Shown: piece by piece, positions 20,247-56,470 of the stretch
How the letters are laid out: each line of letters begins with the position of its first letter
Numbering within the stretch: the stretch's first letter is position 1
NCBI RefSeq assembly: GCF_044324875.1
Contig: NZ_CP172185.1
DNA length: 64,000 bases
Source of the DNA: Escherichia coli
GTDB taxonomy: Bacteria; Pseudomonadota; Gammaproteobacteria; Enterobacterales; Enterobacteriaceae
Direction: 5' to 3' (one strand)
Notes under the pieces: generated by a model
The model's input: the letters and a program-made list of their open reading frames with translations, nothing else
Databases searched by the model: none
What the model was told of the DNA's origin: nothing
Program-made: the position numbers and the translations under genes

Positions 20247-22898
20247 TTAGCGACAGATTGCTGTCTGCTGGTTCAGTAAGGTACCAGGAGAAACTTCAGG
20301 AAGCTTGTACTCGACAATACAGTTTGAGTTTTTATCTTTGCCCCATGAAACCTGTAATTTCCCTGACTGTGGAAGTCCAGTCAGATAAACCTGACCGTTT
20401 TCCGCGACAATGCTGCCATTTTTATTCTTTCCGTGAGTGACAATTGCACCGAATGGAACGCTCTTATTACCGTACTTCAACGTCATTAATACTTTCCCGC
20501 CGATTTGTGCATTAAATGTTGCTCTGGCAATAGCACCGTGAGTTGGGATGACAGTGACCACGGTTTCATCCAGTTCAACATTATCTGCAAGGGAATTCGC
20601 GTTAAGAGCGACACGATTTTCTCTATATTCTGTCGCAAATGGTAATATGGCATAGCCACGCCAGTCGGTATGAATACCGGTCTGGTTCTCTATTTTGACA
20701 TTATCAGCGCCAGGAGCCTTAACCAGAACCATTGTGTCGCCCAGCGGCTGTCCAAAGGTGATGCCATCAGCATGAGCAATAATGCCACCACTCATTCCGT
20801 AATAAATCTGGCTGCTGTCACCACTCCGACTGTAACCGACATTCGTATTACCGTAAGCTCCACGATAATTAAGAGAACTGTAACCACTGGTGCCAGACGA
20901 TGTATTACCCCCGTGGGTGTTACCGACCTGAACACTATAATTCAGGTTATTATCCGGCAGCAGAGTGCCATAAACTCCCGATAGATTGGTCATGCCGCCT
21001 TTCAAATCGTTTGACTTACTGTAACTGGCGTTTGAATTACGAAATGCCGACTGACTGTCTGTACGCATCCAATGACTGAAGGGAACATTAAGCGTAAAAG
21101 CAAGTAAATGATCCCGATCGTTTTGCCATATATTATTGGAATAGCTGTAATTCAGCGAAGTCGTAATATCACCAAACGGCACATTTAATCCAAATGATAT
21201 TTGCTGGTCGCTGCGTGACGTGTTCCAGTAACTTTGGCGACTGGCACTAAAAAATGTCGTACCGTAATTTCCAAGCTGCTGAGAGATGCTTATTTGTTCC
21301 TGACCACGCTTACTGTAGAACAGATTAAAATAATCAATAAATTGTGTCTGCTCGTTGCTGTCTCCGGTAGGAGGCTTGACGGTGTAACCACTCATTCGAC
21401 TGTAGGCACTGTCGGATAAGTTATAAAAACCTTGCGTAGAATAGCGATATCCTGCGACCTGGATATTGGTTCCCGTCTGGTAGAAGGATTTGCTGTAGAC
21501 GGATTTAATCGATTGCCCGCTGTGACGGGTGCCATCTGCAAGTGTCGTATTGGCCTGCGTGATATCGAAAGAAAAGGCACCAAAAAGTCCTAAATCTTTA
21601 CCAATACCAAGGTTGAAGGCCTGATAATCTTCTGCAATTTGCATTCCGCCATAAGGTGTCCAGTTTCCTTCCAGTCCATGCATCAAGCTACCTTGTATGA
21701 ACTTGGGGGAGCTTTGCAGGTTATTTCCACTACGATATTCCCCCATGGCAAGCGCATAACGCGTATATCCAGCACGTTGGAGAACCGGAACAGACGAATA
21801 AGGAACATATAATGTCTGAATACTGCCGTCTGCCTCTTTTATGGTTACTTGCAGATCACCACCATTGGCCGCAGAGTTGATATCATCAATAGTAAAAGGG
21901 CCGGGTGGGACAGTAGTCTGATAAACATCGTATCCATTCTGTTTTACACTCACTTGTGCGGTGCCGCGGGCAATACCATGAATCACCGGAGCGAAACCAT
22001 GTTGGCTATCGGGCAACATCGCTTCTGTTGAATTTATTTTGAGGCCACGAAAGTTCACACTATCAAAAATATCGCCATCGGTATAACTATCACCTACCGT
22101 TAAGCGTGAGCGTAAGGGAATAATGTCACGTTCAGCCGACGTATTGATATGCTGCCATTTATTGCTGTCAGATGAATTGCTACTCCCACTGTTATAACTC
22201 CACGTTGAGTTATCGCGCAGTCGCCAACTACCAATGTTGATGCCACTCTGTAAATTCAAATATGCATAGTTGGATTTTCCTGCATTATGGTTACTACGAT
22301 TATTAATAGAATTACCATTAAAACTATAGTTTAGAAGCCCAGCATTTATTCCTTCTTCCCACAGATCAGGAGAAACATAGCCGCGAGCCATTCTGCCAAC
22401 ATAAATTTGCGGAACGGAGAGTGACAGATGTTGCTGACCAACATCAAACTCAGTTGATGCGTCGGCCAAACGATCCTGAAGTGGTGTGCATGCGCTGTTG
22501 TCCGGCACATGTTTTTCTGCCGAATGTTCTTTATTGTCTAATAACGCTGATTTTTTTATGCCAAGACTGACTAGAAGATCTGTACTCAGGCATGGGATGA
22601 GATCTGCGTTATTATCATCTGCAATAAAAGTAATATCCCGACTAGTAATAAATTCGTCGTTCAAATAAATGTCGACCCGATATGTACCAGGTGGTGCCTC
22701 GCGTCCCTTAGTAAAGGCGGATAAATCGACAGATTCAGCAAGATCATTGCTTAAAAACCGTGGATTAAAATAATACTCTGCGTCAACGGGAAATACCGCA
22801 GTTGCTAAGCCAAGGGCAATGGTAAGCCGTGCAAAGCGAGGCAGTAGTAACACCTGATGCATACGATATGCCTTAAATGCGGCACGAAAGGCTGTCAT
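20247..22898 (-). CDS. ydeT: fimbrial outer-membrane usher, full length (FimD-like)
   Basis: 883-aa uninterrupted ORF of typical usher length; start may be at the internal MHQVLLL. The K-12 counterpart ydeT is remembered as a truncated pseudogene. Confidence 0.85.
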   Translation of the reverse strand: MTAFRAAFKAYRMHQVLLLPRFARLTIALGLATAVFPVDAEYYFNPRFLSNDLAESVDLSAFTKGREAPPGTYRVDIYLNDEFITSRDITFIADDNNADLIPCLSTDLLVSLGIKKSALLDNKEHSAEKHVPDNSACTPLQDRLADASTEFDVGQQHLSLSVPQIYVGRMARGYVSPDLWEEGINAGLLNYSFNGNSINNRSNHNAGKSNYAYLNLQSGINIGSWRLRDNSTWSYNSGSSNSSDSNKWQHINTSAERDIIPLRSRLTVGDSYTDGDIFDSVNFRGLKINSTEAMLPDSQHGFAPVIHGIARGTAQVSVKQNGYDVYQTTVPPGPFTIDDINSAANGGDLQVTIKEADGSIQTLYVPYSSVPVLQRAGYTRYALAMGEYRSGNNLQSSPKFIQGSLMHGLEGNWTPYGGMQIAEDYQAFNLGIGKDLGLFGAFSFDITQANTTLADGTRHSGQSIKSVYSKSFYQTGTNIQVAGYRYSTQGFYNLSDSAYSRMSGYTVKPPTGDSNEQTQFIDYFNLFYSKRGQEQISISQQLGNYGTTFFSASRQSYWNTSRSDQQISFGLNVPFGDITTSLNYSYSNNIWQNDRDHLLAFTLNVPFSHWMRTDSQSAFRNSNASYSKSNDLKGGMTNLSGVYGTLLPDNNLNYSVQVGNTHGGNTSSGTSGYSSLNYRGAYGNTNVGYSRSGDSSQIYYGMSGGIIAHADGITFGQPLGDTMVLVKAPGADNVKIENQTGIHTDWRGYAILPFATEYRENRVALNANSLADNVELDETVVTVIPTHGAIARATFNAQIGGKVLMTLKYGNKSVPFGAIVTHGKNKNGSIVAENGQVYLTGLPQSGKLQVSWGKDKNSNCIVEYKLPEVSPGTLLNQQTAICR

Positions 22899-27338: not shown

Positions 27339-30317
<2,979 letters not shown>

Positions 30318-32829: not shown

Positions 32830-33531
32830 TTAAGCTGTCCGGCGGAGTGCATTTAACAGCGCCACACCAACCCCATGTGCTGAAGCGGGATTCTGCCCCG
32901 TGATAAGGCGATCGTCGGTAACCACGTTTTCAGACCAGTTTGGAGCTTCATGATAAAGCGCACCATGCTCGCGAAGTGCGGTTTCAAGCAGGAAGGGAAC
33001 CACATCTGTTGTGTGAACTTCTTCCTCTTCCTTGTTGGTAAAGGCCGCCACATTTTTCCCTTTTATCAGGTATTCGCCGCTACTGAGTTTTGCGTCAACC
33101 AATGCCGCAGGCCCGTGGCAGACGGCTGAGACAATCCCATCACTTTCATACACTTCGCGGATAATACGCTGGGCATCCTGATTATCACGGAAATCCCACA
33201 TGGTCCCATGACCACCTGCAAAGAAAACTGCGCTGTAATCGGCACCTTTCAGCTCGGATAACGCAGGTGTTGTTGCCAGGCGCTGCTGAAAATCGGTTTC
33301 GTTCCAGTACCAGGCGTTAACAGGGTCGCTGAGGTTAAATCCATCCACCGGTGGCTGCCCCCCGCGAATACTGGCTATTGTTGTTTTTATTCCGGCATCT
33401 TCCAGTACTTTCAGCGGATGAGTCAGCTCGGCCAGGAAAAAACCGGTTGGTACACCGGATGCGCCTTTAATCGGATGGCTGGAAACGACACATAGCACTG
33501 GTTTATATGCAGGTTTCATATCGGTCCTCAC
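32830..33531 (-). CDS. DJ-1/PfpI family protein (class I glutamine amidotransferase-like; glyoxalase/deglycase candidate)
   Basis: 233-aa ORF with the nucleophile elbow …SAVCHGP… typical of DJ-1/PfpI proteins. Confidence 0.8.
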   Translation of the reverse strand: MRTDMKPAYKPVLCVVSSHPIKGASGVPTGFFLAELTHPLKVLEDAGIKTTIASIRGGQPPVDGFNLSDPVNAWYWNETDFQQRLATTPALSELKGADYSAVFFAGGHGTMWDFRDNQDAQRIIREVYESDGIVSAVCHGPAALVDAKLSSGEYLIKGKNVAAFTNKEEEEVHTTDVVPFLLETALREHGALYHEAPNWSENVVTDDRLITGQNPASAHGVGVALLNALRRTA

Positions 33532-33839
33532 TCTTTATTTTTAAATTCATCGGCGAAGAGATTTTCCCAGTTAATAAAGGAGCCAAGCGGTATACACTCG
33601 AAGCTTAGTAAGCCTGCTTTTGCCAACGGGAATTCGGCCATAACGTTCATCGCTTCATCGACAGAGTCACATTCAAGAAAAATAGCGACGCCAGGTCTGT
33701 CCTGACGGAAGTAGATGTCGCGGATGAAGCCTGATTTATACAATCCCCAGGCGTGCAGAGCTTCAGCGTTGAGGTGCGGAGCATATTTCTCCAGCGATGC
33801 TACAGGGGCAGGGATATCCAGACATAAAATTCGCATCAT
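33528..33839 (-). CDS. small Dabb-fold protein (muconolactone-isomerase-like / YciI-like)
   Basis: 103-aa ORF; stop overlaps the DJ-1 start by 4 bp (translational coupling); AGGAG RBS upstream; family call is by pattern and is approximate. Confidence 0.6.
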   Translation of the reverse strand: MMRILCLDIPAPVASLEKYAPHLNAEALHAWGLYKSGFIRDIYFRQDRPGVAIFLECDSVDEAMNVMAEFPLAKAGLLSFECIPLGSFINWENLFADEFKNKE

Positions 33840-35273: not shown

Positions 35274-36458
35274 TTACTTAATACCGTATTCTCGGCTTAA
35301 CCGGCCGTGCAACCTCAACACATTGGTTTCAACTGCCGTCACCACGTTCTCCGGAAAATCTGTCGGTAATGAAGTCTTCACGTTATCCAGTGCTGCCGGA
35401 ATCATTCTGGCAAAGTCACTCAGGATTTCATGCATCTGCACTTCCGGAAATTTCAGCAACTTTGCTGTCGCCAGAAAATGTCGCGGATAAATTTTATCGA
35501 TTGCCGTTTTTTTGCCTTTGGATGCGTTAAGCCCCATTGCCAGTTTGAACCACTGGAACACCTGAAACTTCATAAAATCATAGCGATCTTTCAGCGCCTC
35601 GCTGGACCCCATCAAAAAAGCCATGATCCGCGCGATGCCTGGGCCTCCATCTGATTCATATTTCACCGATGAAGTTAAACCGAATGTCTGACACATATCC
35701 TCCTGTGGCAAGCGAAGTAAAACCGTTCGCTCAGCATTCCAACGCCTGTCAAAACGTTCGACCGCTAACGCGCGCACATTCCCCGCTTTAATGATTTCTG
35801 CGTCCGGCACATTCAACCCAAGTTCTTTCGCCAGCAGCAGACAGTAATACTCATTATCAACGCTTTGGCTGAGATCGAGCGTCGCATTGGGCTGCCTGAT
35901 TTCGCCAATCGGTAATTTAATGATGTGCGTCGTCGGCGTTATTCCTTTCGGAATGCACCAGTCATTGCCTATTCTGAGCAGCGCTGTCTTCTCCTGCGCG
36001 CCAGCAACCGAGATGCGAAAGTCATTTTCTTCTCTAATCATGCCCAGAGGGATATCTGCTTTATAAGCCGTTAATACTTCTTCAAGTCTGGCTTCAGTAA
36101 GCTTTTCCCATGCCATTATCGGATGCGTTACGGTTTCGTCTTCGGGTATTAACGTCACGGCACCAACGCTGTCTCGCCCTATTTCTGACAATAAATCAAA
36201 CGGTTGTCTGGATTTGGCATGATAACGTTTAACGATCCGGTCACGTACAATCGGGCTATCGGGTAACAGATTATCGAAGAAGTTAAATACGGCATCAGAG
36301 GTGATATTCCCCCTCTGCAATGGCAGCGAAAGTGACAACGGTCTGGCATAACGGCTGGCTAACCACTCCGGTGCATACTTAAAGGTGTGCGCGCCGTTGG
36401 CTAACTTCGTTAACTCGCCTACCCGCTGGTTGTTCATCCAAGTGACAAGTTTAGGCAT
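35274..36458 (-). CDS. hipA: HipA serine/threonine kinase toxin, internally deleted allele (394 aa)
   Basis: Starts MPKLVTWMNNQRVGEL… at 36458, overlapping the hipB stop by 1 nt. Sequence reads …DFMKFQVFQW-FK-LAMGLNASKGKK…; the segment containing the GATDGHAKNF catalytic motif is absent. ORF track start 36515 is upstream of the hipB stop and is rejected. Confidence 0.85.
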   Translation of the reverse strand: MPKLVTWMNNQRVGELTKLANGAHTFKYAPEWLASRYARPLSLSLPLQRGNITSDAVFNFFDNLLPDSPIVRDRIVKRYHAKSRQPFDLLSEIGRDSVGAVTLIPEDETVTHPIMAWEKLTEARLEEVLTAYKADIPLGMIREENDFRISVAGAQEKTALLRIGNDWCIPKGITPTTHIIKLPIGEIRQPNATLDLSQSVDNEYYCLLLAKELGLNVPDAEIIKAGNVRALAVERFDRRWNAERTVLLRLPQEDMCQTFGLTSSVKYESDGGPGIARIMAFLMGSSEALKDRYDFMKFQVFQWFKLAMGLNASKGKKTAIDKIYPRHFLATAKLLKFPEVQMHEILSDFARMIPAALDNVKTSLPTDFPENVVTAVETNVLRLHGRLSREYGIK

Positions 36459-36724
36459 TACCACTCCAGATCTTGCTGTTCTGTTGATTCTGGCGAGGCA
36501 TTTTTCGCGTCGCATAGCGTCATTGAGAGTTCAAGCGACTGTAAAATCTTAAAAAATGTCGTGAGCGTGGTATTGTCAGGGTTGTTTTCGAAATTGGAAA
36601 TTGTCGCCTGCTTAATACCGATTTTTTTCGCCAGCTCGCTCTGCGTCCAGCCATTTTGCTGACGAACCAGTTTCATTGCATTCGCTAATTGCGTTGGGTT
36701 ATAGATCTTCTGAAAGCTCATCAT
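36458..36724 (-). CDS. hipB: HipB antitoxin (Cro/C1-type HTH)
   Basis: MMSFQKIYNPTQLANAMKLVRQQNGWTQSELAKKIGIKQATISNFE…, 88 aa; ORF track start at 36742 would lie inside the operator region. Confidence 0.92.
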   Translation of the reverse strand: MMSFQKIYNPTQLANAMKLVRQQNGWTQSELAKKIGIKQATISNFENNPDNTTLTTFFKILQSLELSMTLCDAKNASPESTEQQDLEW

Positions 36725-36745: not shown

Positions 36746-36859
36746 TATCCGCTCAAGGGGATATTATCAGTTTTATCCTTTAGTGGGGATAAAGTCAATC
36801 AGGAAACACATCTTATCCGCTGTACGGGATAAACGCTGCGATATCCTCGATCGCGGATA
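36746..36859 (-). promoter_or_regulatory. hipBA promoter with four HipB operators (TATCC-N8-GGATA)
   Basis: Four exact TATCC-N8-GGATA palindromes at 36746-36763, 36774-36791, 36814-36831 and 36842-36859. Confidence 0.85.
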
Positions 36860-36907: not shown

Positions 36908-39900
36908 TTACCAGCTATATTTCACTCCCAGCATGCCCTGAGTATCGCTATAGCCTTTATCACCTAGTTGCACACCGACATTCCCCCACAGGCTAAGGTT
37001 GTTATTTACTTTCGCCTCAACCCCGGTACGTACTTCACCGAGATTACGCGCACCATCACGGCTTACGGTTTGACCATTCATCTTCACTGCGTAGACTTTG
37101 CTGTTGTTGATCCAGTTCGCTTCAATGTAAGGCTGGAACTCACGCTGTTTACCATCGTCACGCTGGTGATGGCTGTTCAGGTAGGTTTTCACCCCAAGTC
37201 GCGTTTGCACGTTTCCGTCGCCTTCCGTTTCAATGCGTGTTCCGTCTTTCCGGGTATGGTCAGAATCTTTCACACCCATCCAGGTGATTTGTACCTGTGG
37301 CTGGACGTACCAGGTATTCAGCGTCCCTTCGCTGCCGCTAAAAGTTCCCGCTTCAAAGGTATACCCACCCTCAACAGAGGCCGTCACACCGCGAGAATCA
37401 TAGTCGTCAGCAGAACGGTTATCGGAACTGACGCTGTTATCAAACCAGTTATACAGCGCCCAGCTGTCAACATAAGCGCCGGTCTTATTCGCATCGTTCT
37501 GATACCAGGTCGCGTACAGTCCTGCGCTGTAACCGCTGATGCGCCCATCCGATTTATAACCCACACGATTACTCTGAGTATTACTGTGCTGATTGGCGTA
37601 GCCTGCCATCACGCCAAGATGCCAGCGATCCTGCGCGTTGCTACTCCACTGCGCCAAATCGCCTCCTAGCTGCAATACATAGCGGTTAGCCTGAGTATTT
37701 AGCTGGCCGTCACCGGTCCTGAAACGTTCGTGCCCCCCGACATGACGCATCCACATACTGCTTGCCGAACCCTGAGAATGCAGTGAATCTGTATACTGCG
37801 GCTCACCCAGACGGTCGTGTAAGCGATGGCTAAACAGCGAGTTGGCTGCGGCAATGTTGCTGATATAGCTTCCGGCCTCCGGGCGATAAACTGATGGGCC
37901 TTCCGGATCCACAACAGGGGGATTATTGATGGGATCGGGTGTATCCGGTGGCGTTACGCCTTCCCATTTACTGGTCAGATACCAGTTTTTCTCGTCATTC
38001 CCCTTCCCTTTAGCCAGCGTGTAGACGTAAGCCCCAGCTTCGACAGTTCCGGTGGTCAGCGCGAAGTTACCTGCAGAATTACCGCCAACCTCAATGAGTT
38101 CAATACCGTTGACCGTTTGTGCACCGACGCCGCCAATGTTATCAACCCGAACGCGAGTGTTCCCTTGGGTATCGCCTTTCACGTTCATCTTATCGGTGGG
38201 CGAATTATCGCCGCCCAGCGTCGCGTTGAACGTCATCAGGCCATTGTTTCCATTATAGTTACCGTTAACGGTCAGTACATTCCCCGGTTTCCCCCCTTCG
38301 CTGTTCATTTGAACCGTGCCACCATTCTCCAGGTTACCGCCGACAGTGGTTTTAGCGACACGCAGTGTCCCCCCTGGCATAACGTTCACATCACCTGCAG
38401 TGGTGACATTTCCCGACATCACACCGCTGTTATGGATATTAATGTGCTGACTTGCCATATTAATGGCAGAGTCGGAACCGAAAGCAATTTCACCACCCAC
38501 GATATCCGTCGTACCCTGATACGCCGCGGAATCGTTGTTAAGAGTCAGGATCCCGGTACCCAGTTTTGTCACATCACCGCTACCGCTGATACTGTGCGTC
38601 ATCGCCCAGCTACGCTCAGTGGAGATGGTGAGCAGGCCATTATTGATAACGGAAGCATCACCCAGGTTTTTCTGATCGTTGACGCTGAGCGCGCTGCCTG
38701 TATCAATGTTGAATTGCCCCACAAAGCGGCTATTATCGCCATCCAGCTCTACATCTGTCCTGGCGGTTGCGCTCACGATACCCTTCCCGCTTATGCTATT
38801 ACGCAGTTCTCCAGTCACGTTTTTTAGCGTTAACAGACCGTCATTGGCAATATTTCCTCTGCCTAACCCCTGCGTATTATCGAGGCTGACTTCCGCATTT
38901 GGGCTAATGCTGGTTAACGCATTGTAGCGTGCATTAAGCCCCTCGATAGCCAGTGTTCCCCCTGTAACATTCAGGTTTCCGCCACCTGTCAGTTCACCCT
39001 GACTGATCCCACCTTTATTTACCGTGAGCGCCCCCTCTTTGAACAAAACAGTCGAACCCATCTGCCCGGTGAATGTCTCTACCGTCTGCGTCGATCCATT
39101 AAGATCGACGATGGCCGCGTTGCTGATGTTCAGTTCCCGGGTGTTGCCAAGTGCACCATCCGCATCGGTACGTAATGTCCCCATCTGAACGTAGGTTGCC
39201 CCCTGATAGTCGTTCTGACCGTTGGAAAGCGAAACCTGTCGTACCGTATTGATTGCCAGATCCCCTTCACCACCGATTTTTGCCGACATATCGGCTGTTG
39301 CGCCATAGGCTCCGCCATGTTCGGCTAACGTCAGCTTTTGCCCACCATGGATGTTCAGCGCTTTCAGCCCATAGTTAACGTACAAACCATCACCTGGTGC
39401 GGTCGTGAGGCGGAATCCATAATCACCCTCGGCGACCACTGTTCCGTTTTGTGCAATGTGTAACTTTTTGTCCGCTTCCACCGCGTCGCCCTGTAAATCA
39501 CGTAACGTTAATGAGCCACCCGATCCAATAACCGTTTGCGCCTTCACCAGTTGAACGCCGACATGGCTATCATCGTGTTCCAGCAAATTGAGCGTCGTCA
39601 GAGGGTTATTCGCCATGGGATCATTCCACGGTTTAGGCACGTCGATAAGCACGTCGCCCATCCCGTTTACCTGATAGTTACGGCCTTTCCAGGTGTAGTC
39701 ACCCGTGCCGACAACCAGCGTATCGACGCTGATATATCCCTCCGCAAGCGTCGCAGCAGGTATATCCGTATCGAAAGTGAGCGTACCGCCATTCATGGCT
39801 AGTCCACCAATGGATTGCTCTCCCACTTTTACCGATGTGGTATTTTCACTGTCAGACTGAAGCATCGCGTGAGTAAGCGCAGCGGTGTTGTCGCGTTCCA

Positions 39901-41723
39901 GTGTGAAGGTACTGTCTTTCAGTTGGGCAACACCGGCGAATTCAGTTCCTGTTGCATGGGTAAAGCCAAACATTTTGTCGGAGGATGACAGCTGCACTCG
40001 CATCAAGCCATCGCCTTTGAGCGCATTGGTCAGCGTGTAATCTCCTGCACTGTTCGTTGATGCGAGAATGTCGAGCGTACCGGGGCTTGCAATGGTTACT
40101 TCACTCGAACCCATGCCTGTTACCCCATCTGCCGTATGTGACGCAATAGTCAGGAGGCCGTCATTGACCAGCGTTTTACCACTATAAGTATTCCCTGCAT
40201 TGAACACCGTATGGCCTGCATCATGCATCACTTTTCCGTCTTTATCGTCACCCGTAATCAGCATATCGACCTGGTAGCCGGCATCACTGTTATTAGTATG
40301 ATTAAAGACAAAAACGCCTTCGCCAAGACCAAACTCCACTTTCGTCGCATTGGTGATAAACCCGGCATCTGCCGCCGCCTCACCGTGAGCAGCACCAATG
40401 TTTAGCGTTCCTACAGCAGGTTCAAAAACACCTAAGTAAACTTCTCCACCTTCGACATTCAACGTGCCGTTATTCGTCAGGGTTAACGTACCCGTGCCTG
40501 TCGTCCCTACGTTCATATTGAATGTTTCAAGAAGAGAGTTCTGCCCATCCACCCGCACGTCGCCCTTACTTTTGTCATTGAGAGCTATTTGTGTATCACG
40601 CGCTTTAACTATACCTCCGGTGGTAATATTCAGTTCACCCGTGCCTAATACACCGACCTGTAGCAATTGGGCGTTAGTAGATGACGTTTTTAAATTCCAG
40701 AGACTATCCGTTGAAATATTAACTATCCCCTTACCGGAGGCATTTCCTCCGATAAATCCATAGCCCGTTGAATTAAGAGTGGCACCATTACTGACATTTA
40801 CGATGCCGCTACCAAAATTACCGACATTGATACCTACAGTATCGAACGATGATGTCGCATCCATCAGGTTCAGTGTGCCGATACCGCTTGCTTTATCGCC
40901 CAAAAAAGTAATATTTTGCGATACGAACTTACCGCCATCGCTGATATTGAGGTTTCCGACACCCGCAACACCAATGGTGGTATAGACATTCTTATTGACC
41001 TCCCACATCCCCCCCGTGGTGATGCTGACATTCCCGACGCCGGTTTCTCCATAACCGAGTGAGCTTCCTCCGTTGCTGACAACAAGCCCCTCATTACTGA
41101 TATTCATTTCGCCGTGGCCGTCATAACCAAGATTAGTTCCGAGATTAGTGATAACGGAGTTCTTATCCTTAATAGTAATGTTGCCTGTGCCTGTTTCTTT
41201 CATCCCCGCAGTGATAATTCCCGAATCTACTTTTCCTTCACTCGAGACATTAAGTTCACCGTCGCCAGCATCACCGATATAGATATAGCGGAAAGCTTCG
41301 CCCGTTCCGAGGAAATTCCAATGCCCTTTATCGGTCACGTTGACGACACCGTGGGACCCGTCCTGAACGCCCACAAATGAATATTCTTTGTTATTAATCA
41401 GTCCATTATTGGAAATATTGACTTTGCCATTACCGAAATATCCATTATAGAGTCTGCGTACCGTGATAACAGAGTCTTGATCCTGCACATTCAGGGTTCC
41501 GATACCGGTGGCATTGCCACCGATAATCGTATTTTCAGCCGTAATCAGCCCCCCCTCGCGAATAGTCGCTTCCCCCGTGCCTTGATTGCCAATTTGAAAT
41601 TCAATTGAGGAATCATTATTTTTTATTAGCCACTCGCCACCCTTTTCAACGACAACCTTACCATTGCTGTTCGCCTGATATCCTACAATGGCGACGATTG
41701 AACTCGTGACGTAACCCTTATCC
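36908..41723 (-). pseudogene. AIDA-type autotransporter adhesin, 5' end truncated by IS1 (ydeK/yneO-like)
   Basis: About 1600 codons of uninterrupted frame: long Gly/Thr/Asn-rich repetitive passenger and C-terminal beta-barrel ending …LGVKYSW. The frame runs directly into IS1 at 41724; the first 5 codons of the listed ORF are IS1 sequence and no signal peptide is present. Confidence 0.8.
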
Positions 41724-41778
41724 GGTGATGCTGCCAACTTACTGATTTAGTGTATGATGGTGTTTTTGAGGTGCTCCA

Positions 41779-42054
41779 GTGGCTTCTGTTTCTATCAGCT
41801 GTCCCTCCTGTTCAGCTACTGACGGGGTGGTGCGTAACGGCAAAAGCACCGCCGGACATCAGCGCTATCTCTGCTCTCACTGCCGTAAAACATGGCAACT
41901 GCAGTTCACTTACACCGCTTCTCAACCCGGTACGCACCAGAAAATCATTGATATGGCCATGAATGGCGTTGGATGCCGGGCAACTGCCCGCATTATGGGC
42001 GTTGGCCTCAACACGATTTTACGTCACTTAAAAAACTCAGGCCGCAGTCGGTAA
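41779..42054 (+). CDS. insA: IS1 InsA
   Basis: 91-aa [46 protein letters not shown]… (zinc-finger and HTH). Confidence 0.93.
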
Positions 42055-42476
42055 CCTCGCGCATACAGCCGGGCAGTGACGTCATCGTCTGCGCGGAAAT
42101 GGACGAACAGTGGGGCTATGTCGGGGCTAAATCGCGCCAGCGCTGGCTGTTTTACGCGTATGACAGGCTCCGGAAGACGGTTGTTGCGCACGTATTCGGT
42201 GAACGCACTATGGCGACGCTGGGGCGTCTTATGAGCCTGCTGTCACCCTTTGACGTGGTGATATGGATGACGGATGGCTGGCCACTGTATGAATCCCGCC
42301 TGAAGGGAAAGCTGCACGTAATCAGCAAGCGATATACGCAGCGAATTGAGCGGCATAACCTGAATCTGAGGCAGCACCTGGCACGGCTGGGACGGAAGTC
42401 GCTGTCGTTCTCAAAATCGGTGGAGCTGCATGACAAAGTCATCGGGCATTATCTGAACATAAAACACTATCAATAA
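41973..42476 (+). CDS. insB: IS1 InsB frame (expressed as InsAB' transposase by -1 frameshift)
   Basis: 167-aa ORF in the -1 frame relative to insA, overlapping it across the A6C slippery site. Confidence 0.9.
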
Positions 42477-42771
42477 GTTGGAGTCATTACCGAAAATTAC
42501 CATCATCATATTTAACAAAGAATAGCACTAATTGCTAAAAAAAGAAGTTTATTAAACCCCTTTTTCATCCATTAATGCCTTTAGGAATATTCGATATAAA
42601 ATAAGGGTTATGCTTAATGCTTTAAGAAAAATAGCAATTTCCCCTTGAATATATTACGGGCGATGGAACGATGAATCTGCAAGCTGGCATTTAACAAACC
42701 AGCTCTAAAAGAAGGGAAATAAGAATACTCAAAAAACAGCCACGGTCATCATGATGTGGCTGTCAATGAAA

Positions 42772-55051: not shown

Positions 55052-56470
55052 TCAGACAACTTCCTCACCGTAACGCATAGTGCTGGTACGGTTGCGCCCA
55101 TCTTTCTTCGAGCGATACAGACACGTATCGGCTTCGACCATCAATTTATTAAAGTCATCGGTCAGCGTTCGGTACGATGCGCATCCACTACCGACGCCAA
55201 TACTTACCGTGAGATAAAGCGTTTTTTGTTGCCAGGTGAACGGTTGCAATTCAACGCCTTTACGGATTTTTTCCGCCATTAGCAAACCATCGACAGGATT
55301 CACCGACGGCACTGCAACAGCAAATTCTTCGCCGCCCATTCGCGCCACCAGCCCCTTATCACCGACAATCTTCTGAATATGCTGGGCAAACACGCTTAAC
55401 ACTTTATCGCCACATTCATGTCCATAGTTATCGTTAATGCTTTTGAAATAGTCGATATCAAGCAGCATGACAGTCAGATGTTGTGTCTGTTTCAGCGATG
55501 GACTTTTCAGCGCCTCATAAAGACCGGACCGTGAGTAAACCTGAGTCAGAAAATCAAAGTCGGCTCGCAGCGCAACTTGCTTCATTAGCGAATTGATCGC
55601 TGCCACGCTAAAAGAAACCATAATTGGGCATATCGCCATCGTGGCAATACCGAGACGTGCGGAGAACATTTGCGGAATGGAGAACGGCGAACCGACCGAG
55701 ATATCAATCACTGAATTTGCCACCAGTACGATTTCCACCGCACCGGTGACAAAGGTCAACAGACATGTTACCTGCGGCGTATAGCGCACTGCACACCAGA
55801 TTAATGCAGGCAGCGGGAACGCCAGACTCCCCGCTCCGCCAATGACTACCGAGGCAATAACCGACACAATAAGCGCGATAGCGGGCATCATCTGTTCTGC
55901 TTTAAAGCGCGGCAGCACTCCAGGAATTGCCAACGTCAGCATACAAGGCACGATCAACACGCCCGTTGAGAATTGCTCACTGAACCAGTCGGCAAGCAAA
56001 GGCCAGAAATCCAGACTATCAATACTGACCGAACCAATCGCCCCGACAATAGCGCATAATAATGCGGCAATCAGACAGTAATTAAATAGCCGTAAGGCAC
56101 TTACTGGCTCATACTTATTTTTCCCCAGACGCTTATCCCGCGCGACCAGTAAGGCGACGGTAACAATAAACATCATATTGGAGAAATTGATAGCCAGTGA
56201 AACCAGCCCCCATTCGGTGGTTATGGCATCATAAACCAGCATTGCCACATAACTGATCGCATAGTAATGCAGTCGATTAAGCCAGACATAGCGGGCAAAC
56301 ACCCCCGCCATTACGCCATTCAGCGGCCAGAAAAGAGAAAGTTCGTGAACCAGCCGTAACTCTGCACCAATAAAATAGAACAGCGTGGTTAGCGCAAAAA
56401 TAGCGATGCTATTACGTAGCAGATGACCTTCCTGGAACAAACGGAAAGTTGAAATGGGCTGTACATGCAT
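55052..56470 (-). CDS. dgcF: membrane-anchored diguanylate cyclase (GGDEF) DgcF/YneF
   Basis: 472-aa ORF: multi-helix membrane N-domain followed by a GGDEF domain with RMGGEEF active-site motif; start codon uncertain. Confidence 0.85.
   Translation of the reverse strand: MHVQPISTFRLFQEGHLLRNSIAIFALTTLFYFIGAELRLVHELSLFWPLNGVMAGVFARYVWLNRLHYYAISYVAMLVYDAITTEWGLVSLAINFSNMMFIVTVALLVARDKRLGKNKYEPVSALRLFNYCLIAALLCAIVGAIGSVSIDSLDFWPLLADWFSEQFSTGVLIVPCMLTLAIPGVLPRFKAEQMMPAIALIVSVIASVVIGGAGSLAFPLPALIWCAVRYTPQVTCLLTFVTGAVEIVLVANSVIDISVGSPFSIPQMFSARLGIATMAICPIMVSFSVAAINSLMKQVALRADFDFLTQVYSRSGLYEALKSPSLKQTQHLTVMLLDIDYFKSINDNYGHECGDKVLSVFAQHIQKIVGDKGLVARMGGEEFAVAVPSVNPVDGLLMAEKIRKGVELQPFTWQQKTLYLTVSIGVGSGCASYRTLTDDFNKLMVEADTCLYRSKKDGRNRTSTMRYGEEVV

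What the first reader, a model, noticed from the sequence alone, without database searches (positions are those of the whole stretch)
35274..36458. hipA allele with an in-frame 46-codon loss spanning the kinase catalytic core, beside an intact hipB and operators
Seen in sequence: the hipA frame starting MPKLVTW is uninterrupted but only 394 codons, and reads …KDRYDFMKFQVFQW-FK-LAMGLNASKGKK… (junction near 35544-35552). From memory, K-12 HipA is 440 aa and has LIGATDGHAKNFSVFIQAGGSYRLTPFYDIISAFPVLGGTGIHISD between that W303 and the LAMG segment; this contains the catalytic Asp309 and the Mg-binding Asp332. Residue numbering I can check in the window (Gly22, Ser150, Asp291, Trp303) matches the published numbering, which supports the alignment. 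The product would keep the N-terminal and P-loop (VAGAQEKT) regions but should be kinase-dead. hipB and all four TATCC-N8-GGATA operators are intact, so the module looks like a detoxified toxin-antitoxin locus rather than a decayed one.
Basis: partly seen in the sequence, partly recalled or inferred. Interest (0 to 1): 0.7.

Follow-up and report, generated by a model that had tools for sequence, protein, structure and literature searches.

The report
Natural kinase-dead hipA deletion allele
This E. coli carries a real, clonally inherited 138-base in-frame deletion that removes the catalytic centre of the HipA persistence toxin and leaves its antitoxin gene intact; it is one of many natural ways E. 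coli loses this toxin, so it is ordinary.

Summary
hipA (35274-36458, minus strand) has 394 codons. Against the closest full-length allele (E. coli C4) it is identical except for one clean 138-bp gap. The gap removes residues 304-349 (PDB HipA numbering), including Asp309 and Asp332, and creates a Phe junction codon.

It is not an assembly artefact. The exact 394-aa protein occurs on 131 public contigs from independent NCBI and SRA-derived assemblies. No complete RefSeq E. coli genome (0 of 5,426) has the junction. Carriers are near-identical, so this is one young clone, close to ST69 O77g:H18 strains.

hipB, its overlap with hipA, and all four TATCC-N8-GGATA operators are intact.

"Kinase-dead" is well supported by inference, because D309Q or D332Q alone abolishes HipA function. 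"Detoxified rather than decayed" is not demonstrable:
- The clone is too young to have decayed further.
- An in-frame outcome is expected for one random deletion in three.
- Out-of-frame hipA lesions elsewhere also keep hipB.

hipA damage is common. About 16% of complete genomes have gross lesions. At least 78 independent in-frame deletions exist, against 17 in one neighbouring control gene.

Verdict: an ordinary loss-of-function polymorphism of a well-known toxin gene. Low interest.

The parts
35274..36458 (-). hipA allele with 394 codons. It is HipA lacking residues 304-349, with a Phe junction codon.
   Evidence: ORF and translation. Identical to C4 hipA apart from a 138-bp gap. PDB HipA alignment 1-303 / 350-440. 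The Pfam Couple_hipA domain is complete, and the HipA_C match stops at model position 131 of 213.
35548..35549 (-). Deletion junction (GGT|TCAAAC). It has 1 nt of microhomology. The right end falls immediately after a GATC at hipA nt 1045-1048.
   Evidence: Alignment with C4 and breakpoint mapping. A 43-mer across the junction is absent from 5,426 complete E. coli genomes.
36458..36724 (-). hipB antitoxin/repressor gene, 88 codons, intact. Its stop overlaps the hipA start (TAATG).
   Evidence: Translation is identical to the HipB of C4 and ECA64. It differs from K-12 HipB by S9N and N85D. NCBIfam PRK09726 equivalog scores 184 bits against a cut-off of 79.
36746..36859 (-). Four HipB operators of the form TATCC-N8-GGATA: O1 at 36746-36763, O2 at 36774-36791, O3 at 36814-36831 and O4 at 36842-36859.
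   Evidence: Pattern search with a chance expectation of 0.01. The region is identical to C4 and ECA64 except for one base in the O4 spacer.
36847..36847 (.). Lineage-specific SNP in the last spacer base of operator O4 (TATCCGCGATCGA-GGATA; 15 other alleles have C at that base).
   Evidence: The exact 51-mer is absent from complete genomes. The SNP is shared by carriers L002 and L003. O2 naturally has A at the same spacer position, so an effect is unlikely.

Best explanation
This is a recent, clonally inherited loss-of-function allele of the HipA toxin gene.

Shown:
- One illegitimate deletion of 138 bp, with only 1 nt of microhomology, removed codons 304-349.
- That segment holds the catalytic loop (GATDGHAKN with Asp309), the following strands and the Mg-binding Asp332.
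- The reading frame, hipB and the operators are intact.

Inferred:
- The product cannot phosphorylate GltX or itself, so it cannot cause HipA-dependent growth arrest or persistence.
- HipB is still made and still represses the operon through the four operators.
- The locus therefore behaves as an autoregulated hipB gene carrying an inert, probably poorly folded HipA remnant.
- The in-frame state and the intact antitoxin reflect chance and the youth of the clone, not maintenance of a new function.
- Loss of hipA is neutral or mildly advantageous, as it appears to be in many other E. coli lineages.
For: The deletion is exact and is the only difference from C4 hipA.

The residues lost include D309 and D332 by PDB numbering. 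D309Q, D332Q and S150A each abolish growth arrest and tolerance (PMC3376134 citing Correia 2006). D309 and D332 are the ATP-coordinating and Mg-binding residues (PMC10653801). Of the 46 deleted positions, 33 are invariant in homologues down to 76% identity. The Pfam HipA_C match is cut at model position 131 of 213.

The allele is real. The exact protein is on 131 contigs, listed in 247 index blocks, with several NCBI accessions and SRA-derived assemblies.

The clone is young. Carriers L002 and L003 show 0 mismatches with the window over 8 kb. The protein's cluster has no variant members. The non-deleted relative ECA64 differs by about 3 SNPs per 6 kb.

hipA loss is commonplace. Only 4,549 of the 5,408 hipA-positive complete genomes keep 80% or more of the gene in one piece, and 314 of 5,426 lack the 138-bp core segment. 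At least 78 independent in-frame internal deletions are in public data, against 17 in the neighbouring gene dgcF. Out-of-frame and fragmentary lesions with hipB intact are seen.
Against: No experiment shows that this protein is inactive or unstable.

The frame is preserved. The N-terminal domain, the P-loop and the C-terminal helices, which in HipA contact HipB and DNA (PMC3920265), are all retained, so a residual non-kinase role cannot be excluded.

The allele is the most abundant of the in-frame hipA deletions found (131 contigs; the next has 44). This could reflect selection rather than hitch-hiking with a successful clone.
Confidence: 0.8

Rival explanations
1. The truncated HipA is kept because it still does something useful without kinase activity. 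It might bind HipB and act as co-repressor on the operators, stabilise HipB against Lon, or, together with HipB, give immunity against incoming hipBA-type addiction modules.
For: The frame is intact. The N-terminal Couple_hipA domain, the P-loop and residues 350-440 are retained. In the HipA-HipB-DNA complex the N-terminal and C-terminal domains of HipA each contact a HipB subunit, and HipA is a co-repressor (PMC3920265; PMC3376134). All ten other in-frame deletion loci examined keep an 88-aa hipB and four operators. The low-confidence model of the deleted protein joins the helix before the gap to the helix after it.
Against: Only in-frame alleles could be seen with the protein search, so the preserved frame carries no information. 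Out-of-frame and fragmentary hipA lesions also keep hipB. The deletion removes 46 core residues, 33 of them invariant, which makes misfolding likely. There is no sequence diversity within the clone with which to test for constraint. The AlphaFold models are too poor to support stability (mean pLDDT 60 and 63).
Confidence: 0.12
2. The deletion was positively selected. Killing the kinase gave this clone a fitness gain, for example by avoiding costly HipA-induced dormancy, and the same pressure explains the many independent hipA deletions.
For: At least 78 independent in-frame hipA deletions were found in a truncated list, against 17 in a complete list for the similar-sized neighbour dgcF. Of the 78, 53 remove at least one of S150, K181, D309 or D332. 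This allele is carried by at least 131 assemblies.
Against: Only one control gene was used, and it is probably under purifying selection, so the excess may only show that hipA is dispensable. The abundance of the allele can be explained by clonal expansion for unrelated reasons. There are no phenotypic data.
Confidence: 0.2
3. The 138-bp gap is an assembly or sequencing artefact and the real genome has full-length hipA.
For: The junction is absent from all 5,426 complete RefSeq E. coli genomes, and the closest genomes have the full gene.
Against: The exact 394-aa product is recorded on 131 contigs from independent NCBI assemblies and Logan assemblies of separate SRA runs, including one 5.75-Mb contig. 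Two carrier loci fetched show the identical junction and flanks. There is no repeat in hipA that could cause a collapse; the junction has only 1 nt of microhomology.
Confidence: 0.01

Closest known systems
E. coli K-12 HipA (b1507; PDB 3DNT, 3FBR, 3HZI), the serine/threonine kinase toxin of the type II HipBA module
   Same: Same locus, between the ECSE_1600-family autotransporter and the F9 fimbrial region. Same hipB-hipA overlap and four operators. Outside the gap the protein matches K-12 except for P262T, V380L, R382K, S424T and S439I.
   Different: It lacks residues 304-349, which include the catalytic loop and the Mg-binding Asp, and has Phe at the junction. The HipA_C profile match is truncated. 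NCBI names the protein only 'HipA domain-containing protein'.
Engineered kinase-dead HipA point mutants D309Q and D332Q
   Same: They inactivate the same two catalytic residues that are missing here. They are non-toxic and give no tolerance.
   Different: The point mutants are full-length, fold normally and were used for crystal structures (D309Q appears in the HipA-ATP structure description). This allele removes 46 core residues, so its folding and HipB binding are unknown.
Other natural hipA lesions in E. coli
   Same: They are independent inactivations of the same gene, usually with hipB retained. In-frame examples are P0038 (residues 268-350 lost, 44 contigs), P0006 (309-338 lost, 21 contigs) and P0014 (299-350 lost). 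Out-of-frame or fragmentary examples are CFSAN018748 and O145:H28 RM12581. Three of them share this allele's right breakpoint at nt 1048.
   Different: This deletion has its own left breakpoint (nt 910/911). It sits on the C4/ECA64-type allele and is the most abundant of the in-frame set (131 contigs).
hipA7 high-persistence allele (G22S, D291A)
   Same: It is a natural or selected variant of the same gene that changes persistence.
   Different: hipA7 is a gain of persistence with an active kinase. Here Gly22 and Asp291 are wild type and the kinase centre is gone, so the expected phenotype is loss of HipA-dependent persistence.

Membership tests
HipA serine/threonine kinase toxin (type II HipBA) | N-terminal HipA domain (Couple_hipA) | tested here: met
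   Pfam PF13657 at residues 6-103, E = 4e-27. TIGR03071 scores 103.8 bits against a cut-off of 27.8.
HipA serine/threonine kinase toxin (type II HipBA) | P-loop with the autophosphorylation site Ser150, and the ATP-binding Lys181 | tested here: met
   ISVAGAQEKT with S150, and K181, are present at the published numbering.
HipA serine/threonine kinase toxin (type II HipBA) | Complete kinase core with catalytic Asp309 and Mg-binding Asp332 | tested here: not met
   Residues 304-349 are absent. The HipA_C profile is matched only to position 131 of 213. Both Asp residues are required for function.
HipA serine/threonine kinase toxin (type II HipBA) | Gene sits immediately downstream of hipB and overlaps it, in one operon | tested here: met
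   The hipB stop and hipA start overlap (TAATG) at 36458-36460. Synteny matches C4, ECA64 and K-12.
HipA serine/threonine kinase toxin (type II HipBA) | Growth arrest on expression; phosphorylation of GltX | not testable with these tools
   This needs an experiment. Absence of activity is predicted from the missing catalytic residues.
HipB antitoxin / operator system | Full-length Xre-type HipB that meets the curated equivalog model | tested here: met
   NCBIfam PRK09726 scores 184.3 bits against a cut-off of 79, over residues 1-88 of 88.
HipB antitoxin / operator system | Four TATCC-N8-GGATA operators upstream of hipB | tested here: met
   Four exact matches at 36746-36859 with a chance expectation of 0.01. 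The consensus and operator number are as described in PMC3920265. There is one SNP in the O4 spacer.
Decayed pseudogene | Frameshift, premature stop or IS interruption | tested here: not met
   The reading frame is uninterrupted for 394 codons. The only lesion is the in-frame deletion, so the gene is non-functional by content, not by frame.

The most novel reading that the evidence does not exclude
hipA may be a recurrent target of in-frame core deletions in natural E. coli. At least 78 independent events were found, several-fold more than in a neighbouring gene. Breakpoints are shared: four independent deletions end exactly after the GATC at nt 1045-1048, and two end exactly at nt 953. Two readings of this pattern would be novel. 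One is selection for a non-toxic HipA scaffold that still partners HipB on the operators. The other is a site-specific breakage process in this gene. On either reading, this allele would be the most successful example.
Probability: 0.12. Interest if true: 0.55.

Novelty: new member of a known kind. Interest (0 to 1): 0.25.

Why it matters
Isolates of this clone, which is close to ST69 O77g:H18 strains, should lack HipA-dependent persistence. That matters when hipA is used as a marker or explanation for antibiotic tolerance in genomic surveys: the gene would be scored 'present' and in frame, yet it is catalytically dead.

The survey also gives a resource. At least 78 natural in-frame hipA deletions could serve as a ready-made deletion series for mapping which parts of HipA are needed for HipB binding and co-repression.

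Beyond that, the finding illustrates the well-known tendency of chromosomal toxin genes to be inactivated while the antitoxin persists.

Tried and rejected
1. AlphaFold2 models of the deleted and full-length proteins were built from 13-14-sequence alignments. Both were poor (mean pLDDT 60.0 and 62.9), so nothing can be said about stability and no fold search was run.

2. None of the 85 in-frame deletion clusters touches residues 1-87 or 376-440. This looked like evidence that the termini must be kept. I rejected that reading. The largest ungapped block is always below 80% of the variant's length (maximum 0.799), which is the signature of the database's clustering threshold. Deletions near an end are absorbed into the 440-aa clusters.

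3. The lineage-specific SNP in operator O4 was considered as a possible compensatory regulatory change. I rejected it as probably harmless. It lies in the non-conserved spacer, and O2 naturally has the same base at that position.

4. A link between breakpoints and GATC sites (MutH nicking) was considered. The main hotspot abuts GATC 1045-1048 and one left end abuts GATC 871-874. This amounts to one hotspot plus one coincidence and is not significant. The nt 953 hotspot has no GATC, and the control gene also shows a shared endpoint.

5. The consensus promoter scan did not find the hipBA promoter. Promoter integrity was judged instead from identity to functional alleles.

6. NCBIfam holds no HMM equivalog for HipA itself, so curated-model membership could be tested only for HipB.

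7. Literature searches for this allele or for natural in-frame hipA deletions found nothing. The primary papers Schumacher 2009 and Correia 2006 are not held, so their results are cited second-hand.

Full report
**Observation.** On the minus strand an ORF ends at 35274. Read from the MPKLVTW start at 36458 it has 394 codons and passes through ...KFQVFQW-F-KLAMGLNASKGKK. The closest full-length allele in 5,426 complete RefSeq E. coli genomes is hipA of strain C4. The two sequences are identical at every aligned base and differ by one 138-bp gap. The missing bases are hipA nt 911-1048, or 912-1049, because a single T is shared by both ends. This runs from the third base of codon 304 to the second base of codon 350, so the hybrid codon TTC gives Phe. 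Against crystallised HipA (3DNT and seven other PDB sequences), residues 1-303 align to 1-303 and 304-394 align to 350-440. Gly22, Pro86, Ser150, Lys181, Asp291 and Trp303 are at the published positions.

**Is it real?** A 43-mer across the junction is in none of the 5,426 complete genomes, which at first suggested an artefact. The exact 394-aa protein is nevertheless in the 15-billion-protein collection. It was seen on 131 contigs and is listed in 247 index blocks. It has several NCBI accessions (EHS0460984.1, EII4854300.1, EIQ9232874.1, EIX4563823.1), a UniParc entry and Logan assemblies of separate SRA runs, and the longest contig is 5.75 Mb. NCBI names it 'HipA domain-containing protein'. 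Two carrier loci that were fetched (GCA_044161945.1 and SRR11235006) have the same junction and show no mismatch with the window over 8 kb. An assembly artefact is therefore excluded.

**Which lineage?** The allele belongs to one young clone. Its nearest non-deleted relatives are ECA64 and CB6837, at 99.9% identity with about 3 SNPs per 6 kb. These are ST69 O77g:H18 strains described in PMC13188871 and PMC13248637. That the clone itself belongs to ST69 or a close relative is inferred from this similarity.

**What is lost.** The segment LIGATDGHAKNFSVFIQAGGSYRLTPFYDIISAFPVLGGAGIHISD contains Asp309 and Asp332. The held literature states that D309Q (catalytic site), D332Q (Mg-binding site) and S150A each abolish HipA-dependent growth arrest and antibiotic tolerance (PMC3376134 citing Correia 2006). 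It also identifies D309 and D332 as the conserved ATP-coordinating and Mg-binding residues (PMC10653801). In an alignment of full-length homologues down to 76% identity, 33 of the 46 deleted positions are invariant. The Pfam HipA_C match ends at model position 131 of 213, while the N-terminal Couple_hipA domain is complete. That the product is kinase-dead is an inference, but a strong one. Whether the protein folds at all could not be assessed, because AlphaFold2 models of both the deleted and the full-length protein were poor (mean pLDDT 60 and 63).

**What remains.** hipB (36458-36724) encodes an 88-aa protein identical to that of C4 and ECA64. It passes the curated NCBIfam HipB equivalog model with 184 bits against a cut-off of 79. 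Its stop overlaps the hipA start as in K-12. Four exact TATCC-N8-GGATA operators lie at 36746-36859, matching the described architecture in which HipB binds four operators cooperatively with HipA as co-repressor (PMC3920265). The only change in the control region is a lineage-specific SNP at 36847. It is the last spacer base of O4 and is found in no complete genome. Since O2 carries the same base at that spacer position, an effect is unlikely.

**Population context.**
- hipA is frequently damaged. Of 5,408 complete genomes with any hipA match, only 4,549 keep 80% or more of the gene in one place, and 314 of 5,426 lack the 138-bp core segment.
- Three examples were examined. A cattle strain has lost hipB and the first 254 nt of hipA. 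O145:H28 RM12581 has an intact hipB and a 423-bp hipA fragment. CFSAN018748 has an intact hipB and a net loss of 281 nt in hipA, which is out of frame.
- A search of 5.8 billion protein clusters with the 394-aa protein returned 85 clusters among the best 120 that are E. coli HipA with a single in-frame internal deletion of 22-131 residues. These represent 78 distinct events on several allele backgrounds. Thirty-three of them remove D309, and 53 remove at least one of S150, K181, D309 or D332.
- The window's allele is the most abundant at 131 contigs. The next are 44, 21 and 14 contigs.
- All ten other carrier loci examined keep an 88-aa hipB and four operators.
- As a control, the same search with the neighbouring 472-aa gene dgcF (window 55055-56470) gave 17 such events in a list that was complete to 69% of the maximal score. 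hipA therefore has at least 4.6 times more. This is one control only. It shows that hipA is less constrained than dgcF, but not that its loss is selected.

**Two patterns that needed care.**
- No deletion touches residues 1-87 or 376-440. This is an artefact of clustering at 80% coverage: the largest ungapped block never exceeds 0.799 of the variant's length.
- Breakpoints recur. At nucleotide level, the window's allele and three independent deletions on other backgrounds end exactly after nt 1048 (GCGATC|TCAAAC). Four more end within 7 nt of it, two end exactly at nt 953, and some left ends also recur. Microhomology is only 0-3 nt. The loci examined at nucleotide level were chosen because they shared protein-level endpoints, and the control gene also shows one shared endpoint. 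I therefore read these as ordinary hotspots of illegitimate deletion, but this remains unexplained.

**Interpretation.** The best explanation is a single, recent, illegitimate deletion that killed the kinase. The result is a hipB gene that still autoregulates plus an inert HipA remnant, spread by expansion of one clone. 'Detoxified' is right. 'Rather than decayed' goes beyond the evidence, for three reasons. The clone shows no diversity with which to test constraint. In-frame status has a prior of one third, and in-frame alleles are the only kind the protein search can reveal. Intact hipB and operators also accompany out-of-frame lesions. A residual non-kinase role as HipB partner or co-repressor cannot be excluded, because the N-terminal domain and the C-terminal helices that contact HipB and DNA are retained. 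I give that about 0.12.

**Comparison and novelty.** The gene is an allele of E. coli hipA by locus, synteny and near-identity. It fails one defining feature of the active toxin family, the complete kinase core, so it should be described as a hipA-derived, catalytically dead remnant and not as a HipA toxin. Functionally it is closest to the engineered D309Q and D332Q mutants, and in kind it is closest to the many other natural hipA lesions. The sequence is already in public databases under a generic name. No paper in the held library describes it. It is a new member of a known kind, namely natural loss-of-function alleles of chromosomal toxin genes.

**Limits.** There are no functional data. 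The primary papers for D309 and D332 are not held and are cited second-hand. Only one control gene was used. The serotype and sequence type of the carrier clone are inferred only from the nearest complete genomes.

Noticed in passing
window 28173-30126: A 1,954-bp IS21-family element (IstA 340 aa, IstB 260 aa; IS100-like) is inserted in an aldo/keto reductase gene, with a 5-bp overlap of the flanks that suggests a target duplication. It is absent from ECA64 and C4. Short-read carrier contigs break at this element.
   Followed up: partly
window 41725-42491: An IS1 copy (InsA 91 aa, InsB 167 aa; 767 bp) replaces 845 bp present in ECA64 and in the hipA-deletion carriers L002 and L003. It removes the promoter and roughly the first 197 codons of the ECSE_1600-family autotransporter gene next to hipB. 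The remaining ORF is 36908-41737, 1,609 aa against 1,806 aa in C4. This is a later event within the clone.
   Followed up: partly
window 37349-37866 versus L002/L003: The two short-read carrier assemblies lack 518 bp inside the autotransporter gene that the window and ECA64 have, and in L003 the gene is split into 1,488 + 123 aa. This could be a real deletion or a collapsed internal repeat.
   Followed up: no
window 36847: A clone-specific SNP changes the last spacer base of HipB operator O4 and breaks its perfect 18-bp palindrome (TATCCGCGATCGCGGATA in 15 other alleles). It is absent from all complete genomes and shared by the other carriers. It is probably neutral, because O2 has the same base at that position.
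   Followed up: yes
window 21448-21465: A fifth exact TATCC-N8-GGATA match (TATCCTGCGACCTGGATA) lies 15 kb from the hip promoter. By coordinate transfer from ECA64 it falls inside the F9 fimbrial usher gene. The chance expectation for the motif is 0.01 per window. It could be coincidence or an extra HipB site.
   Followed up: partly
hipA nt 953 and nt 1045-1055 (window about 35541-35549 for the latter); loci L005-L014: Independent in-frame hipA deletions on different allele backgrounds share exact right breakpoints: nt 1048 in four cases and nt 953 in two. Some left breakpoints also recur (nt 892/893, nt 797-806). Microhomology is only 0-3 nt. The nt 1048 site abuts a GATC. The cause is unexplained.
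   Followed up: partly
hipA nt 1017-1029 (inside the segment deleted in the window; L001 4017-4029): The C4/ECA64-type allele carries a tight cluster of 7 substitutions relative to all other hipA alleles compared, just upstream of the breakpoint hotspot. This is why the 138-bp segment is only 90-95% identical to most E. coli, while the rest of the gene is 95-99% identical.
   Followed up: partly
proteins P0148 and P0202: Public assemblies contain fusion proteins with both HipA_C and GGDEF domains. This implies deletions of about 19 kb that join hipA to dgcF in some isolates.
   Followed up: no
window 33759 and 33802: Two further clone-specific SNPs relative to both C4 and ECA64 fall within 44 bp of each other, inside the small conserved hypothetical gene at 33528-33839.
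   Followed up: no
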